Shown here: in pieces, positions 592 through 64,000 of the stretch
Layout of the letters: each line of letters opens with the position of its first letter
Numbering within the stretch: position 1 is the first letter of the stretch
Source of the DNA: Octopus vulgaris
Lineage: Eukaryota
DNA: 64,000 nt
Assembly (NCBI GenBank): GCA_951406725.2
Contig: OX597817.1
Span: 2,604,001 to 2,668,000 of the forward strand
Direction of reading: 5' to 3'
Made by a program: the position numbers and the translations under genes
The notes under the pieces: model-generated
Databases searched by the model: none
Told to the model about the DNA's origin: nothing
Seen by the model: the letters and a program-made list of their open reading frames with translations, nothing else

Positions 592-2459
592 ACTTGTAAT
601 TATCGCATTCAATTTGGCATAAGATCGATATGGAACACCGGACAGACCGGTAACCGCAGCAATTGTAAGGAAACTTAGCAGAAGAGAAAGAGAGATGCAC
701 CGGCTGAGGAGATAGATCAAGACCTTCAATAAACAGTATAAGAGGGCCTTCACTGATTAAAGAAAAGGCATTAGGGTCTCGAAAAGTCAGCCCCTTAAAT
801 GCATGAGAAAGCCTAGAAGGGTAGAAAGCACCCAGGAGCGGAGTAAAGTGAGGGAGATCAAGCGAGTGCAATTTGTCAAGAACCCTTTTAGGTTCACACG
901 AACGCTGTTGAGGAACCAAATCAGGGAATTTGAAAAGCTTCAAAGAAGAAGTAAAATCATTTCTGAGGGAGACTCACAATGATGACCTCAGAAACGAAGC
1001 CCAAATGTCGGTAGAGTTGAAATACCAGTAAATAAATTCCACTTCAGCTGTCCTCCATCCTGGAAAGAAGTAGAACATGCCAGATCAAGATCAGATTCTG
1101 GCCCAAGTAGTATACCTTATAAAGTATACAAGAAATGCCCGTGGATGCTCTTTTGAAAGATCTGGATAAATGGTAACATCCTATCATGCTGGAAGAAGGC
1201 GGAAGGATGTTTTGTGCCAAAGGAAGAAAACTCCACAGCCGTTAATCAGTTCAGGACCATCTCCCTCTTGAGAGTTGAGGGGAAAATCTTCCTTTCTATA
1301 CTGGCCAAAAGGGTGACATCATACACGACTGAAGAAAGGGTATATAAACACATCTATCCAGAAAGGTTGGGTTCCTGGTTTCTCAGGATGTCTGGAACAC
1401 ACTGGAATTCTCAGTCAGTTGATTCAGGAGGCGAAGAGAAGTAAAGGTGACTTGACAGTGGTTTGGCTGTATCTGGAAAATGCAAACGGATCAATTCCTC
1501 ATTCCCTCATATATGCAGCCCTTCACTGCTATCATATTTCTCTTCATATCAAGGGAATAATCAGCAGTTATTTTGGAGCATCCAGTTACGTTTCAGAACA
1601 ACACATTTCATTTTACAACTCGGTGTCAAAACCTTGAGGAAGGAATTATAACTGGGTGCACGATTTCCCCCATTCTTTTTATCATGGGTGTGAATCTCCC
1701 CATGGCAACTGCTGATAGAGAAACCCAAGGACTAGTACTGGAATCAGGCATCTCTCAGCACCCAATGAGGAACTTTATGGATAATATTACGATAACAACT
1801 GCAAACCATGTGGATGCAGAAAGAGTGCTGACGTCACTAGAACACATGACGACATGAGCGAGTATGAGGTTTAAGCCCCCAAAATCGAGGAGGATGGTGA
1901 TAGGGTGGGGCGAAGTAACCAACAAAATCAGGCTGAAAGTGCAAGGAGAGGCCATTCCATCAATAGAGGAAAATCTTATTAAATGCTTTGGAAAGATGTT
2001 TGACAAGTCGCTGTGAGACCGATGTGACGTCACCAACATTGTGAAACAAGCAGAGGAGTGGCTGATGAGGATTGATATATCAGGGCTTCTAGGAAAGTTC
2101 AGGGCATGACTCTACCAATACGGACTGCTCCCAAGACACATATAGTTGTTGACGCTGTATGATGTTCTGATGACAAGTGTGGAAAAGGTGGAGAGGAAGA
2201 TAAATAAATACCTCCGAAGATGGTTAGGTGTTACCCCCAACCTTCATTTCAAAAGGCCAGTACATAAGATCGAAGCATCTACAACTTCCCCTGTCATCCG
2301 TAGTGCAGGAATTTAAAGTAGCAAAAGGAAATGTAATGATGTACACAGACTTTAAGAACGAGCTTGTTAGACATACTGATATTACTACAAGATCCGGGCG
2401 AAAGTGGATAGCTAGCGCCCCAGTTGCTCAGGTTGAAGGGATGTTGGAGCTGCGCGACA
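592..2459 (+). mobile_element. Decayed HERO-clade (R2 group) non-LTR retrotransposon, reverse transcriptase region
   Basis: Frameshifted pieces read FVKNPFRFTRTLL, PKEENSTAVNQFRTISLLRVEGKIF, KGDLTVVWLYLENANGSIPH, GIITGCTISPILF, NFMDNITITT (FMDD), SGLLGKF and LQLPLSSVVQEFKV..RSGRKW. This is the motif order of HERO RT proteins. Confidence 0.85.
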
Positions 2460-2569
2460 TGCATGCATACATGCATACATACATACATACAGACATACAA
2501 ACATCCATACATACATACATACATACAAACATCCATACATACATACATACATACATACATACATACATG

Positions 2570-2601
<32 letters not shown>

Positions 2602-2907
2602 CATGCATACATACATACATACAAACATACATATATACATACATACATACATGCATACATACATACATACACACATACATACACACACACATACATACAT
2701 ACATACATACACACATACATACATACATACATACATACATACATACATACACACATACATACATACATACACACATACATACACACATACATACATACAT
2801 ACATACATACATACATACATACATACATACATACATGCATACATACATACATGCATACATACATACATACATACATACATACATACATACATACATACAT
2901 ACATACA
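2460..2907. repeat. (TACA)n microsatellite interrupting the HERO element
   Basis: About 450 bp of slightly degenerate TACA repeats. Confidence 0.95.
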
Positions 2908-3100
2908 TTTGGGATATGTACCACACTGCCTAAATACCAATCTTGAGAAATTATGCTTCTCAAAATAAGAAAGGAGGAAGTCAATTCAAAGACTACAGAT
3001 CCAATTCATCGCTGGAACTGTAAAAGTCTGTAAAACTTACCAGAAGTTTATCATTAAAATATATACGAGCATGTCTATATATGTAACTATCTGCATGAGG
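2908..3100 (+). mobile_element. 3' fragment of an R4/Dong-like RLE non-LTR element, same family as 17791-18395
   Basis: Reads LGYVPHCLNTNLEKLCFSK..LQIQFIAGTVKVCKTYQKFII. DNA is clearly homologous to about 18020-18200. Confidence 0.75.
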
Positions 3101-3295
3101 AGTTACATGCAGGGTCGCCAGAGTCTTGGTTCTTCTTATTTCGAACAAGGGAAGAAAGCAGACACTAGGGAGAGACGGGCTATGACCCAGGAAGCGGGTC
3201 GTACCAGGGGGGAAAAAGAAGAAAGTCAAGAGCTGAGGAGTTAGTATCTCAGGGTGCATGGACTAAATGGGATCTCCCTAAGAGGAAGTTACAAG
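3101..3295 (+). mobile_element. Continuation of the HERO element after the insertion
   Basis: GRQSLG..KKADTRERRAM and VSQGAWTKWDLPKRK match the post-RT GRAGLG and QQGAWTRW motifs of HERO. Confidence 0.7.
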
Positions 3296-3327
<32 letters not shown>

Positions 3328-3971
3328 CATACATACATACATACATACATACATACGTACGTACATACATACATACATACATACATACATACATACATAC
3401 ATACATACATACATACATACATACATACATAATACGTATGTGTATATGTAAATATATTCAGTGTTGATCACAATTTGTTATGCTACGTAAAATAAAGCGT
3501 TCAATGTTAAAAGTCAAATAATATATAAATAAAAATTATTTATATATTAATTGTACTACATCACTCCATAATGCGTGTGGCTTGCTAATTACATAAAGTT
3601 ACTTTAGATTCCAACTTCAATTAAAAAACAACAAAGAGAAACGTTCCAAACAGTAAAGCGATTGTGCTGTTTAGCTGGCGCGAGAGTACGAGTACTCTGC
3701 TTTCCAACTGATTCTTATAAACAGTATATCAATCGTTGACTCTTGTTGAACTGTAACTGAATATTGAATTACGTACTTCCGCTTCATAAGCCACACACAT
3801 TCAGTAGAGTGGTCACATATTCAACTGATATTTATGCAATGAAAATTGGTGCGAAAACTCTAATGAAATCTTCATAACACATCATCTATGTATGTATTTG
3901 CATACATAAAGAAATACGCACACACATAATATATATACATACATACATACATGCATACATATATGTGTGTA

Positions 3972-57799: not shown

Positions 57800-58283
57800 G
57801 GATGATACACACATATATGGCTCTATGTAAAAACATGGTTGCATGTATACTTATCACCATAGTACATGTGATAGGTAGGACTGAACATATTCTCTAACAT
57901 TATTTACATGCCTTTCATCCTCTCAGCGTCGAGAAAATAAGTACCAGTCAGATACTGGGGTTGATGTAAAAGACTTGTTCCTTTCCAACAAGATTTCAGG
58001 TGTTGTTTGCCAGTATAAAGGATTATTCACAGCAAAAACTAATTTCAGCCAAGTTTGCGTTTTCTTCGGTTCATTCCTGATGTACGGCACTGTAAGCAAG
58101 TTCTTTCTACTATACTTCCCGGGCGACCAAACCAATCTCTTTTATGGGCGTTTGATAGACGGAAACTGTGTTGAAGCCCACCGTACATTTATTTGAAAGA
58201 GAGAGATAGAGAGAGAGAGAGAGAAAGTGTGTGTATGTGTGTGTGTTTGTTTGTTTGTGAGTGTGTGTGTGTGTGTGTGCGTG

Positions 58284-59474: not shown

Positions 59475-59563
59475 GGTTCAGTCCCACTGCGTGGAACCTT
59501 GGGCACGTGTCTTCTACTATAGCTTCGTTAGTGGAATTGGTAGACGGAAACTGAACAAAGCCC

Positions 59564-59854: not shown

Positions 59855-60474
59855 CGCACACACAGACGATAAGCAAACTAAACATCTATTTAGAGCAACA
59901 ATGGAAAGAAACTCGACAGAATTTCTTTTGTTTTGTAATTGTAATTCTAGTACCAGATGCACCATGGTACAATAGTTGCAGATGAATGAATCTCACACAC
60001 AAACAAAAGGAAAAAAAAAACTTCAAAAATATGTTTTGTGTTCGGTAGCAATAGTAATTTATAAGTATTGTTATTCTGTTGGAAATAAATAAAATCGTAA
60101 ACAGGTTATATTTACATTAATTAGGGGGACTGACTTGAAATCTTGGAAGCTAAATGGAATTCTAAAGTAGTTTTTCACTTTCAGTGCTTATTGTATCTCA
60201 ACGTCCTGTCAGAGGAACAATAGAGTTAATAAGGGGAAAACAAATGATGGAGTATGCTTAGGGTGTGATTATGTACATATGTATATAGTTGCGGGCATCG
60301 TTAAACCCAGAACCTTGTGATTGCTTTCTAGGAATATAGTTCTGGGTAGAGGCCCACTGCGTGGCGCCTTAGACAAGTGTCTTCCGCTATTGCCTCGGAC
60401 ATACCAAATCCCTGTGATTGGATTTGGTAGACTGAAACTGAAAGAAGCCCGCCATATTTACACATCCATCCATC

Positions 60475-60680: not shown

Positions 60681-61490
60681 GGCGCAGGCATGGCTGTGTG
60701 AATAAGAAACTTGCTTTCCAACCACATGCTTCTGTGTTCAGTCCCACTGCGTGGAACCTTGGGAAAATAACTTCTACTGTAGCCTCGGGCCGACCAAAGC
60801 CTTGTGAGTGGATTTGGTAGACGGAAACTGGAAGAAGTCCGTCGTATATATATACATATATATATATATGTATATAAGTGTATATGCATGTATGTATGTA
60901 TGTATGTATGTATGTATGTATGTATGTATGTATGTATGTATGTATGTATGTATGTATGTATGTATGTATGTATGTATGTATGTATTTATGTATTGTATGT
61001 TTGTATGTATGTATGTATGTATGTATGTATGTATGTATGTATGTATGTATGTATGTATGTATGTATGTATGTATGTATGTATGTATGTATGTATGTATGT
61101 ATGTATGTATGTATGTATGTATGTATGTATGTATGTATGTATGTATGTATGTATGTATGTATGTATGTATGTATGTATGTATGTATGTATGTATGTATGT
61201 ATGTATGTATGTATGTATGTATGTATGTATGTATGTATGTATGTATGTATGTATGTATGTATGTATGTATGTATGTATGTATGTATGTATGTATGTATGT
61301 ATGTATGTATGTATGTATGAATGTATGTATGTATGTATGTATGTATGTATGTATGTATGTATGTATATGTATGCGTGAGTGGTTTGTCTTTGTGCCTGTG
61401 TTTGTCCCTTACCACCGCTTGATAACGGGTGTTGATGTGTTTATGTACCCACTACTTAAAGGTTTGACAAAAAGTGATCGATAGAATTAG
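60681..61490 (+). mobile_element. SINE family A with a ~500-bp expanded internal (TATG)n
   Basis: 5' half at 60681-60845, microsatellite to about 61375, 3' half from 61380. Confidence 0.85.
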
Positions 61491-61689
61491 TAGAAAATGT
61501 GCTGAAATCGATGCATATGTGTATTTGCAGGGAGACCGATATATATACCATGATATATAAAGGAAAGATCCAAGGATCCAGGGGTAGGAAGTCAGTAAGC
61601 TTCGAGCAGTCTGTGGAAGGTATAAAAATAACTTTCAAGAACAATAGTGGTTTATTGACGCAGATGATTGTAATTTTTTTTTTTTCGTA

Positions 61690-62301: not shown

Positions 62302-62342
<41 letters not shown>

Positions 62343-62349
62343 CATATAC

Positions 62350-62877
62350 ATACCGGAGTAAACACATAAATGTGAAACAAGGTGGAAAAAAGAGTACTCA
62401 AATACCAGTGGTAGAGTAATATGCTTTATTTTAAGCAGCAGAAAATTCAACAAAATCTGTTACTCTGAGTTTCTCGTTGCTGTTCATCAGACAGTTTTTG
62501 CTAGAATGGAACTGATATATCAATTCAATCTAGACTCTTACAAATGCTACACCTTTAAAAAGAAATGGACTTGTTTGATTGGCCCTTTAGAAAAAACCGT
62601 CAATCTTCGAGCGATAAACAAAAAGGTCAAAAATATATGTATATATATATATATATATATAAAAACTTATAAAAATTATAAAATCCGAGGAAAAAACCTT
62701 ACATTGAATAAAATACATATTGACGTTAATGAAGAAAGTATAAATTAATGCATAAAAATTAAACCTGTTATAAATATTACACTGCAATACATATTTATAT
62801 TAAAATGTACATATATTCACGCAAACCATCTCGCACGCAAGTTAAAAATCATCTATGTAGCGATTCTCATATACTGA
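62350..62877 (-). mobile_element. Left arm of a long inverted repeat, hammerhead-bearing and pseudo-LTR-like
   Basis: 62425-62877 is the near-identical reverse complement of 63457-64000. Confidence 0.9.
62450..62501 (-). ncRNA. Minimal type I hammerhead ribozyme with a stem II mismatch
   Basis: Minus strand reads CTGT-CTGATGA-ACAGCAACGA-GAAA-CTCAGAG-TA-ACAG. Confidence 0.65.
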
Positions 62878-63456
62878 GCAAGGGGGGGGGGGCGAAAGAA
62901 AGGAAGAGAGAGAAAAAGGAACGAAGGAGGAGTGGGGAAAAAAACGAAATAAGAAAAAATTATGCATACAAGCTGTGTAACGGCATTATTGGCATATATG
63001 GAGACAAGTATACAAACACAAGTTCGAATGGATACATATACATACAGTCGTGTATATGTGTGCTTAAGTACAAACATACTCTCACTTACACATACACAGA
63101 TACGCATGCTTACAAATACATATCCTTGGCTATACACATACTTATATCAACATTCTAATTTTGACAACATTGCTTTTTTAAAAAAAACATTGCTTTTTTT
63201 TAAAAAATGGGTGCATTAATAAAAATATATACGAAAGACATATAAAATAAAATATAACACCCTATTTTGGATCATTTATAAATAATCAAGGTAATATAAA
63301 TAATCAAGGTAATCCTATACAATACAATAAAATGAAAACAAGGTCGAAGGTTTTTCCTAATGTATATGTAGAAACATAAGACTTTGCTATACGGATTAAG
63401 ATCCGCATCGCTTGGAAACAAAATCCATCGTAGCGCTCATCGTTCAAGAGTCAAAA

Positions 63457-64000
63457 TCAGTATATGAGAATCGCTACATAGATGATTTTTAGCTTGCGTG
63501 CGAGATGGTTTGCGTGAATATATGTACACATGCATTTATGTGTATATTTAGATTTATATTCATACGTTTGTATATGTATGGCGTTTGCGCGCATCCTTTT
63601 GTGTATGTTGATATATATATGTACATTTTAATATAAATATGTATTGCAGTGTAATATTTATAACAGGTTTAATTTTTATGCATTAATTTATACTTTCTTC
63701 ATTAACGTCAATATGTATTTTATTCAATGTAAGGTTTTTTCCTCGGATTTTATAATTTTTATAAGTTTTTATATATATATATATACATATATTTTTGACC
63801 TTTTTGTTTATCGCTCGAAGATTGACCGTTTTTTCTAAAGGGCCAATCAAACAAGTCCATTTCTTTAAAGGTGTAGCGTTTGTAAGAGTCTAGATTGAAT
63901 TGATATATCGGTTCCATTCTAGCAAAAACTGTCTGATGAACGGCAACGAGAAACTCAGAGTAACAGATTTTGTTGAATTTTCTGCTGCTTAAAATAAAGT
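63457..64000 (+). mobile_element. Right arm of the long inverted repeat, running off the window end
   Basis: Inverted match to the left arm, plus 97 extra bp at 63529-63625. Confidence 0.9.
63922..63973 (+). ncRNA. Minimal type I hammerhead ribozyme
   Basis: GCAAAAACTGT-CTGATGA-A-CG-GCAA-CG-A-GAAA-CTC-A-GAG-TA-ACAGATTTTGT. Full conserved core, about 10-bp stem I, GCAA-capped stem II and a GUA cleavage site at 63960-63962. Confidence 0.78.

What the first reader, a model, noticed from the sequence alone, without database searches (positions are those of the whole stretch)
62350..64000. Young non-coding foldback element with an outward-facing hammerhead ribozyme in each arm
Seen: two near-identical ~500-bp arms are inverted around a 580-bp spacer with no recognisable protein. 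Each arm has a minimal type I HHR (63922-63973 plus; 62450-62501 minus) followed by AATAAA. Known: minimal HHRs with tiny stem III loops mark Penelope pseudo-LTRs and non-LTR retrozymes and are thought to cleave as dimers; inverted pLTRs arise in PLE insertions. Inferred: this is a non-autonomous ribozyme-bearing retroelement. A transcript from either strand would carry one sense HHR near its 3' end and could fold into long dsRNA, a possible ADAR or siRNA substrate.
Basis: partly seen in the sequence, partly recalled or inferred. Interest (0 to 1): 0.8.

Follow-up and report, generated by a model that had tools for sequence, protein, structure and literature searches.

The report
Head-to-head Penelope retroelement tail pair
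This mirror-image insert is real, but it is two cut-short tail ends of a common Penelope-type jumping gene joined head to head in a TA repeat, a known layout; the fixed way its two outer ends differ suggests that both DNA strands of the target were likely used to start copying.

Summary
The inverted arms and hammerhead motifs are real. The reading 'non-autonomous foldback element' is not supported. Both arms and the 'spacer' are 3' UTR/pseudo-LTR of one high-copy, autonomous Penelope-like element (PLE) family with Hydra-clade features. Its 3,430-bp unit encodes a 710-aa RT plus GIY-YIG protein. The insert is a long minus-strand copy (62353-63459, with a 71-nt tail) joined through 3 nt of overlap to a shorter plus-strand copy (63457-63999, no tail). 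It sits in (TA)n with a probable 13-nt target duplication. The junction is unique among 40 scored hits. Inverted truncated copies with a one-sided tail are published PLE anatomy (PMC8557442, PMC3846280), and this scan noted the layout before in this genome and others. Added here: 25 of 25 scorable pairs have one tailed and one tailless end, and the tail is on the shorter arm in 11, which simple fold-back cannot produce. The hammerhead keeps all core bases but has only a 2-bp stem II, which is broken in the left arm; cleavage is untested. Verdict: a new member of a known kind, with a testable hint about the integration mechanism.

The parts
62340..62352 (+). Left copy of a probable 13-nt target-site duplication in an interrupted (TA)n tract; the right copy lies just beyond the window (64001-64013), one base after the element end
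   Evidence: interrupted duplication of 8 nt or more in 2 of 25 true flank pairs against 2 of 600 mismatched pairs
62353..62423 (-). 71-nt tail (long terminus). In tandem source copies this sequence follows the short terminus and leads into the next unit's 5' region and ORF
62395..62418 (-). Predicted bulged hairpin starting 5 nt past the short terminus; a hairpin of the same shape starts 7 nt past the long terminus in tandem copy L036
   Evidence: z -1.6 and -2.4; weak on their own; lead from e1-8673755
62424..62877 (-). Left arm: PLE pLTR/3' UTR end, with a 97-nt deletion found only at this locus among the 120 loci held
62457..62494 (-). Hammerhead motif of the left arm; core intact, one of two stem II pairs broken by a substitution at 62481
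62878..63456 (-). 'Spacer': the further-5' part of the same 3' UTR; the minus-strand copy begins about 35 nt after the family's ORF stop codon
63457..63459 (.). Head-to-head junction of the two 5'-truncated copies, with 3 nt of microhomology
   Evidence: full-length match only at this locus among 40 scored
63457..63999 (+). Right arm: 5'-truncated PLE 3' UTR/pLTR ending at the short terminus, with no tail and no poly(A)
63929..63966 (+). Hammerhead motif of the right arm (family majority form): 4-bp stem I extendable by about 11 imperfect pairs, full core, 2-bp stem II, palindromic stem III with a 1-nt loop, predicted cut after 63962
   Evidence: compared by eye with File S2 of PMC8557442
63993..63998 (+). 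AATAAA hexamer one base before the short terminus; a role in polyadenylation is not shown

Best explanation
The insert is two 5'-truncated copies of the 3' end of a Hydra-type Penelope-like retroelement joined head to head in a (TA)n tract, likely made in one insertion event in which both target strands primed reverse transcription. Shown: the identity of arms and spacer, the two fixed outer termini 71 nt apart, the one-tailed/one-tailless pairing, the variable inner breakpoints, and intact coding copies elsewhere. Inferred: the family's RT-GIY-YIG protein (predicted to be a dimer in the Anolis relative) nicks both strands of (TA)n with a stagger of about 13-14 nt. One 3' end starts cDNA at the long (tailed) site and the other at the short site of a tandem or circular RNA from the same source lineage. 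Each site lies just before a small bulged hairpin and a 4-nt stretch that could pair with TA repeat. Both cDNAs stop early and are joined at their inner ends through a few bases of microhomology. The hammerhead is the usual pLTR motif, carried along. It would act, if at all, in tandem source transcripts, and is likely masked by arm-to-arm pairing in any RNA read across this locus.
For: Arms and spacer map without a break on the tandem unit in L036. That unit's ORF has RWK, DKT, YRDD, a C-terminal GIY-YIG-type domain and CxxC/CxH, the Hydra features of PMC8557442 section 11. 1,933 of 7,990 scored database proteins match at E<=1e-20, the best at 43-58% identity. Of 59 distinct 9.9-kb loci (60 fetched, L033 a duplicate), 25 hold a head-to-head pair with both outer ends readable, and all 25 have one tailed and one tailless end (L116 and L118 read where the regex failed). 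The tailed arm is the shorter one in 11 of 25 (my count), so the short arm cannot simply be a copy of the long one. Partner arms are closer to each other than to other loci's arms on average in 23 of 23 scored pairs, and share more minor alleles in 19 of 23. A probable TSD is present here and at L117. PMC11167929 (passages) shows in vitro that a PLE protein cleaves and extends both strands and starts at two internal RNA sites that delimit the tail.
Against: No reads of this individual were available, and no listed contig of four other runs bridges the junction. PMC11167929 found no difference in start-site use between the two strands in vitro, so the strict pairing is not predicted by that work. 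Allele sharing between arms could come from later gene conversion. For this locus alone the sharing is weak (1 shared minor allele; 10% of other arms are as close). An interrupted TSD was seen in only 2 of 25 pairs; most flanks are pure TA and uninformative, and several interrupted ones show none. The hairpins are individually weak (z -1.6, -2.4). The linker reads CxF-x5-C in 27 of 34 copies rather than the Hydra CxC-x5-C. The 3.43-kb unit is longer than the 'generally <3 kb' stated for Hydra.
Confidence: 0.8

Rival explanations
1. Same element, different route: one first-strand cDNA (or an antisense template) folds back on itself through microhomology and self-primes, making the second arm as a copy of the first.
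For: PMC3846280 (passages) proposes self-priming for head-to-head PLE inversions. Short overlaps are common at the junctions, partner arms share alleles, and L088 has a small palindrome at its 5' end.
Against: A fold-back copy can hold only sequence present in the long arm, yet in 11 of 25 pairs the shorter arm carries the tail that the longer arm's outer end lacks.
Confidence: 0.12
2. A non-autonomous, non-coding foldback retroelement or retrozyme that moves as a unit with two ribozymes.
For: The insert has no ORF, a hammerhead in each arm, near-identical arms and a probable TSD. PLE-derived non-autonomous retrozymes are described (10.64898/2026.07.22.740005, first fifth read).
Against: The junction is locus-specific (1 of 40 scored, from 1,284 candidates), breakpoints differ between loci, and the spacer is the parent's 3' UTR. 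The cited preprint defines non-LTR retrozymes as tandem direct repeats, which this is not.
Confidence: 0.04
3. Two independent insertions that landed in the same TA tract in opposite orientation, later trimmed by deletion.
For: The family is abundant and targets (TA)n, and solo copies with either terminus exist.
Against: There is no TA repeat between the arms. Pairing is 25 of 25 tailed/tailless, where independent ends would give at most 0.5 per pair. Partners share subfamily alleles, and one TSD spans the whole unit.
Confidence: 0.02
4. An assembly or read artefact (a palindromic chimera).
For: No independent contig bridging the junction was listed.
Against: The arms differ by 5 substitutions and three indels, have different fixed ends, and lie between distinct flanks with a probable TSD. 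24 other loci show the same layout with other breakpoints.
Confidence: 0.02

Closest known systems
Hydra-clade Penelope-like elements (Craig et al. 2021, PMC8557442), e.g. Hydra-1_Obim, Hydra-2_Amil, Penelope-13_HM
   Same: Single RT plus C-terminal GIY-YIG ORF with RWK, DKT and CxxC/CxH; (TA)n target; 3' hammerhead. By eye, stem I, core and stem III nearly match those listed for Hydra-2_aMil. Penelope-13_HM is listed with a 5'-truncated inverted copy and a hammerhead on both strands.
   Different: A different family from Hydra-1_Obim (different hammerhead and protein; three short DNA motifs and one peptide motif absent from the supplement). 3.43-kb unit with a 1.16-kb 3' UTR, 71-nt tail rather than 30-40 nt, CxF linker in most copies, and a 2-bp stem II, shorter than in any Hydra row I read in File S2.
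Inverted 5'-truncated pLTR with one-sided tail in EN+ PLEs (PMC3846280; PMC8557442 Fig. 2 legend)
   Same: Head-to-head copies, variable 5' truncation, tail at one end, TSD of about 9-10 bp in some cases.
   Different: [quoted passage not shown]
Poseidon_Ac in vitro system (PMC11167929)
   Same: Two fixed termini that bound a tail, AT-rich targets, a hammerhead upstream of the termini.
   Different: A different clade. There the start sites lie 111-118 nt inside the ORF; here both lie upstream of the start codon.
Non-LTR retrozymes (10.64898/2026.07.22.740005)
   Same: Non-coding, with a type I hammerhead related to PLE pLTRs.
   Different: Retrozymes are tandem direct repeats of a monomer family; this is a one-off inverted pair of parent UTR.

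Membership tests
Hydra-clade PLE | Single ORF, RT then C-terminal GIY-YIG endonuclease, no N-terminal EN | tested here: met
   L036 ORF, 710 aa from the ATG. Domains were read from motifs and alignment; Pfam gave no hit. The window itself holds no ORF sequence.
Hydra-clade PLE | RWK and DKT motifs | tested here: met
   against section 11 of PMC8557442
Hydra-clade PLE | Linker CxC-x5-C | tested here: inconclusive
   CxC in 5 of 34 copies read, CxF in 27, CxY in 2; 11 of 11 aligned homologues keep CxC. Read as a family-internal loss.
Hydra-clade PLE | CxxC and CxH around the conserved E and N of the EN | tested here: met
Hydra-clade PLE | Insertion into (TA)n | tested here: met
   TA-type repeat at the outer ends of 25 of 25 pairs
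Hydra-clade PLE | Canonical hammerhead near the 3' end | tested here: inconclusive
   Position, core, stem I and stem III fit; stem II is only 2 bp; no Rfam hit
Hydra-clade PLE | Phylogenetic placement within the Hydra clade | not tested
   No tree with the published reference proteins was built; placement rests on motifs and a by-eye comparison with supplement text.
Type I hammerhead ribozyme | Conserved core C3-A9, G12-A14, A15.1-U16.1, H17 | tested here: met
   Both arms; 77 of 91 fully covered copies identical over 37 nt, the other 14 each unique
Type I hammerhead ribozyme | G10.1-C11.1 pair closing helix II | tested here: not met
   A opposite A, then 2 bp. PMC4209133 calls G10.1-C11.1 highly conserved, though several Hydra rows show a T/T mismatch there.
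Type I hammerhead ribozyme | Self-cleavage at the predicted site | not testable with these tools
   All listed runs are contigs, which cannot show RNA ends
Non-LTR retrozyme | Tandem direct repeats with a hammerhead in each unit | tested here: not met
   Inverted arrangement, hammerheads on opposite strands
Non-autonomous element family (MITE/foldback-like) | Dispersed copies sharing the same internal structure | tested here: not met
   Junction matched full length at 1 of 40 scored loci; only the best candidates were scored

The most novel reading that the evidence does not exclude
Penelope-like elements integrate by a two-ended, asymmetric reaction: a protein dimer primes reverse transcription on both target strands at once, and two twin hairpins on the RNA assign one subunit to the tailed start and the other to the tailless start. 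Every two-ended insertion therefore has exactly one tail, whichever arm is longer. The near-absent stem II would mean the hammerhead is kept as a structural or protein-assisted signal rather than as a free-standing ribozyme.
Probability: 0.4. Interest if true: 0.6.

Novelty: new member of a known kind. Interest (0 to 1): 0.28.

Why it matters
As an object it is ordinary: PLE insertion debris in a layout described in print. Its value is as data on an open question, since PMC8557442 and PMC11167929 both say the steps that build tandem and inverted PLE insertions are not established. The 25-of-25 pairing, the tail on the shorter arm in 11 pairs, and the presence of intact coding copies give a concrete prediction and a ready family to test it in. 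The family's conserved but very short stem II hammerhead also tests whether PLE hammerheads must cleave. More than a thousand candidate loci, many inverted, could be a source of long dsRNA, but no expression evidence was obtained.

Tried and rejected
Rfam: no hammerhead family hit; the hits were microsatellite-driven miRNA models. Pfam and PDB sequence searches with the ORF: nothing at threshold. My first hammerhead descriptor had a matching bug and missed the motif; corrected. The constrained-fold energies left out outer stem I pairs and are not used. Sequencing runs: no RNA holder listed; all runs are contigs, so starts, ends, strand and editing cannot be read. Family sequence was covered in 30 of 30 bins in all four runs, one of them only guessed to be RNA; the A>G differences also occur in DNA runs and are not editing evidence. 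Junction check: in four runs the listed pieces stop at 63459 or begin at 63457 or later, none bridges it, and 55 pieces were not shown; a hole proves nothing. Naiad/Chlamys membership was rejected because the EN is C-terminal. The 131-codon frame across the left arm and spacer was rejected as a low-complexity antisense frame. HHR-specific selection is not established: shared-variant sites are 0 of 65 columns in the hammerhead region against 99 of 1,066 upstream, but a neighbouring 100-nt block is also 0 of 100. Dropped before the 25-pair count: L033 (duplicate of L032), L111 (left end deleted), L040 and L094 (inverted fragments without two outer ends), L089 (diverged pair) and L050 (8-nt partner); the last two also look tailed/tailless. 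The remaining loci are solo or direct-tandem copies. Six of the 25 pairs (L115-L120) were picked because they had opposite-strand EN hits. Look-ups in the scan's notes by sequence and by place returned nothing. Literature searches listed no paper on this family; I did not see the strict pairing counted in the passages read, but most subscription papers are not searched.

Full report
1. Observation. The window is G000:C4:2604001-2668000. Self-comparison shows inverted arms at 62424-62877 and 63457-63999, with 5 substitutions in 446 aligned columns, a 97-nt deletion in the left arm and two small indels. Each arm has a type I hammerhead motif with a full core, a 4-bp stem I that can extend imperfectly, a palindromic stem III with a 1-nt loop, and AATAAA 31 nt past the predicted cut. 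A descriptor written after seeing the motif finds these 2 hits in the window against 0.04 per shuffle (200 shuffles). Rfam does not recognise them. Stem II is 2 bp with an A/A mismatch at its base, and the left arm has lost one of these pairs by a change seen only here. The sequence beyond the window shows that the right arm ends at 63999, followed by TA-type repeat.

2. What it is. The arm is a high-copy repeat: 1,058 first-look candidates, with the 40 scored at 99-100% identity. I fetched 60 stretches of 9.9 kb (59 distinct). L036 holds a direct tandem with a 3,430-bp unit: a 71-nt tail, a short leader, a 710-aa ORF and a 1.16-kb 3' UTR that ends in the hammerhead and AATAAAG. Mapped on this unit, the window's insert is tail plus body 2235-3359 on the minus strand and body 2816-3359 on the plus strand, overlapping by 3 nt at 63457-63459. 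The 'spacer' is therefore 3' UTR present only in the longer copy. A 161-nt query across the junction matched in full only at this locus; the other 39 scored hits began at the junction. The endonuclease region has at least 150 matches at 97% identity or more, and 17 of them lie in open frames of 726-728 codons (my count). The family is thus autonomous and recently active.

3. Classification. The protein has RWK, DKT, YRDD, a C-terminal GIY-YIG-type region and CxxC/CxH. These are the features given for the Hydra clade in PMC8557442 section 11. The linker is CxF-x5-C in 27 of 34 copies, CxC in 5 and CxY in 2, while 11 of 11 aligned homologues keep CxC. The paper's File S2 lists Hydra hammerheads with the same build, and File S1 notes an inverted 5'-truncated copy in Penelope-13_HM. 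The listed octopus family Hydra-1_Obim is collinear by eye but clearly distinct. No tree was built. The host was not identified by any search; an earlier scan note on this genome calls it an octopus, which fits my recollection of the SINE-like repeats in the window.

4. Architecture across copies. There are two fixed outer termini, a short one right after AATAAAG and a long one 71 nt further, each followed by TA repeat. Of the 59 distinct loci, 25 (this one included) have a head-to-head pair with both ends readable, and all 25 combine one long and one short terminus. Inner breakpoints vary from under 100 nt to more than one full unit. The tailed arm is longer in 14 pairs and shorter in 11 (my count). 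Partner arms are closer than the mean to other loci in 23 of 23 scored pairs and share more minor alleles in 19 of 23; the other 4 overlap only in the nearly invariant end. An interrupted target duplication is seen here (13 nt, offset by one base) and at L117 (14 nt): 2 of 25 true flank pairs against 2 of 600 mismatched ones. Rows dropped and the selection of loci are given under Tried and rejected.

5. Mechanism. Shown: the anatomy above. Taken from papers: inverted 5'-truncated copies and a tail often at one end only (PMC8557442 passages; PMC3846280 passages); cleavage and extension of both target strands, two internal RT starts bounding the tail, a predicted dimer, and a protein-assisted hammerhead that is dispensable in vitro (PMC11167929, parts 1-2 of 4). 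Inferred: both target strands primed cDNA synthesis in one event, one at each start site, on RNA of one source lineage, and the two truncated cDNAs were joined by microhomology. Simple fold-back cannot explain a tailed short arm. Both give a 5-bp stem, a 3-nt bulge and a 3-4-bp top stem, starting 5 and 7 nt past the ends. The z-scores are weak (-1.6, -2.4), so the matching shape and position carry the argument. The bases just past each end could also form about 4 pairs with TA repeat (read; inference). I put the identity of the insert at about 0.95 and the two-ended priming model at roughly 0.6-0.7.

6. The ribozyme. 77 of 91 fully covered copies are identical over 37 nt and the other 14 variants are each unique (this set is partly selected on this region). 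In 40 loci not chosen by the hammerhead-end query, shared-variant sites are 0 of 65 columns over the hammerhead and extended stem I, against 99 of 1,066 in the upstream UTR, while singleton rates are similar (8.6 vs 6.1 per kb). This points to constraint in transposing lineages, but a nearby 100-nt block is equally invariant. PMC4209133 (parts 1-2 of 4) reports no monomer cleavage and low dimer cleavage for a minimal PLE hammerhead, calls G10.1-C11.1 highly conserved, and already mentions dual motifs close together on opposite strands. PMC544870 (passages) shows that engineered hammerheads tolerate a helix II of 1-2 bp when that G-C pair is kept. Here it is not kept, so activity is open. At this locus the two motifs are on opposite strands, and in a folded read-through RNA all 38 bases of the sense motif pair with the other arm.

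7. Limits. There are no reads from this individual and no raw RNA reads. Genome searches score only the best candidates. The supplements of the bioRxiv preprint (first of five parts read) were not seen; they could list related pLTRs.

8. Verdict. A real, young, one-off head-to-head insertion of a Hydra-type PLE family: a new member of a known kind, in a layout this scan has already noted elsewhere in this genome and in others. Interest 0.28, owed mainly to the pairing rule and the short stem II as tests of how PLEs integrate.

Noticed in passing
L115 (G000:C4:134760500-134770400), L116, L117: Head-to-head pairs in which one or both arms run longer than one full unit (body, tail, more body), which needs a tandem or circular template; L115 has two full-length open frames facing outward.
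   Followed up: partly
L097:9345 (+), L046:1674 (+), L083:4957 (+), L100:2500 (+), L105:7920 (-), L111:2125 (+), L037:1592 (+): Other hammerhead-like motifs with different stems turned up in flanking DNA; the one in L097 has a regular 5-bp stem II. Probably other PLE families of this genome.
   Followed up: no
L044:7337-7993 (-): A second, divergent GIY-YIG PLE fragment with an intact CxC-x5-C linker.
   Followed up: no
L088 and L050, 5' ends of the element: Very short inverted partners: a small palindrome at the 5' end in L088, and an 8-nt piece of the tail end in L050. Some 'solo' copies may be two-ended insertions with a tiny second arm.
   Followed up: partly
solo copies in L037-L110: Solo copies with the short terminus often have TA repeat on their 5' side too, while several tailed solos have non-TA 5' flanks; not counted formally.
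   Followed up: no
window 58069-58168, 59476-59560, 60321-60460, 60711-60845: Four diverged copies of a SINE-like repeat ending in (TA)n (families D14-D16), and a long (TATG)n tract at about 60890-61370.
   Followed up: no
L032 and L033 (G000:C16:20674000 and 20403000): A 9.8-kb stretch at 98.6% identity occurs twice about 270 kb apart: a segmental duplication or an uncollapsed haplotype.
   Followed up: no
window 61530-61665: A short non-repetitive segment between the (TATG)n tract and the element begins after TA repeat and may be the end of another TA-targeting element.
   Followed up: no
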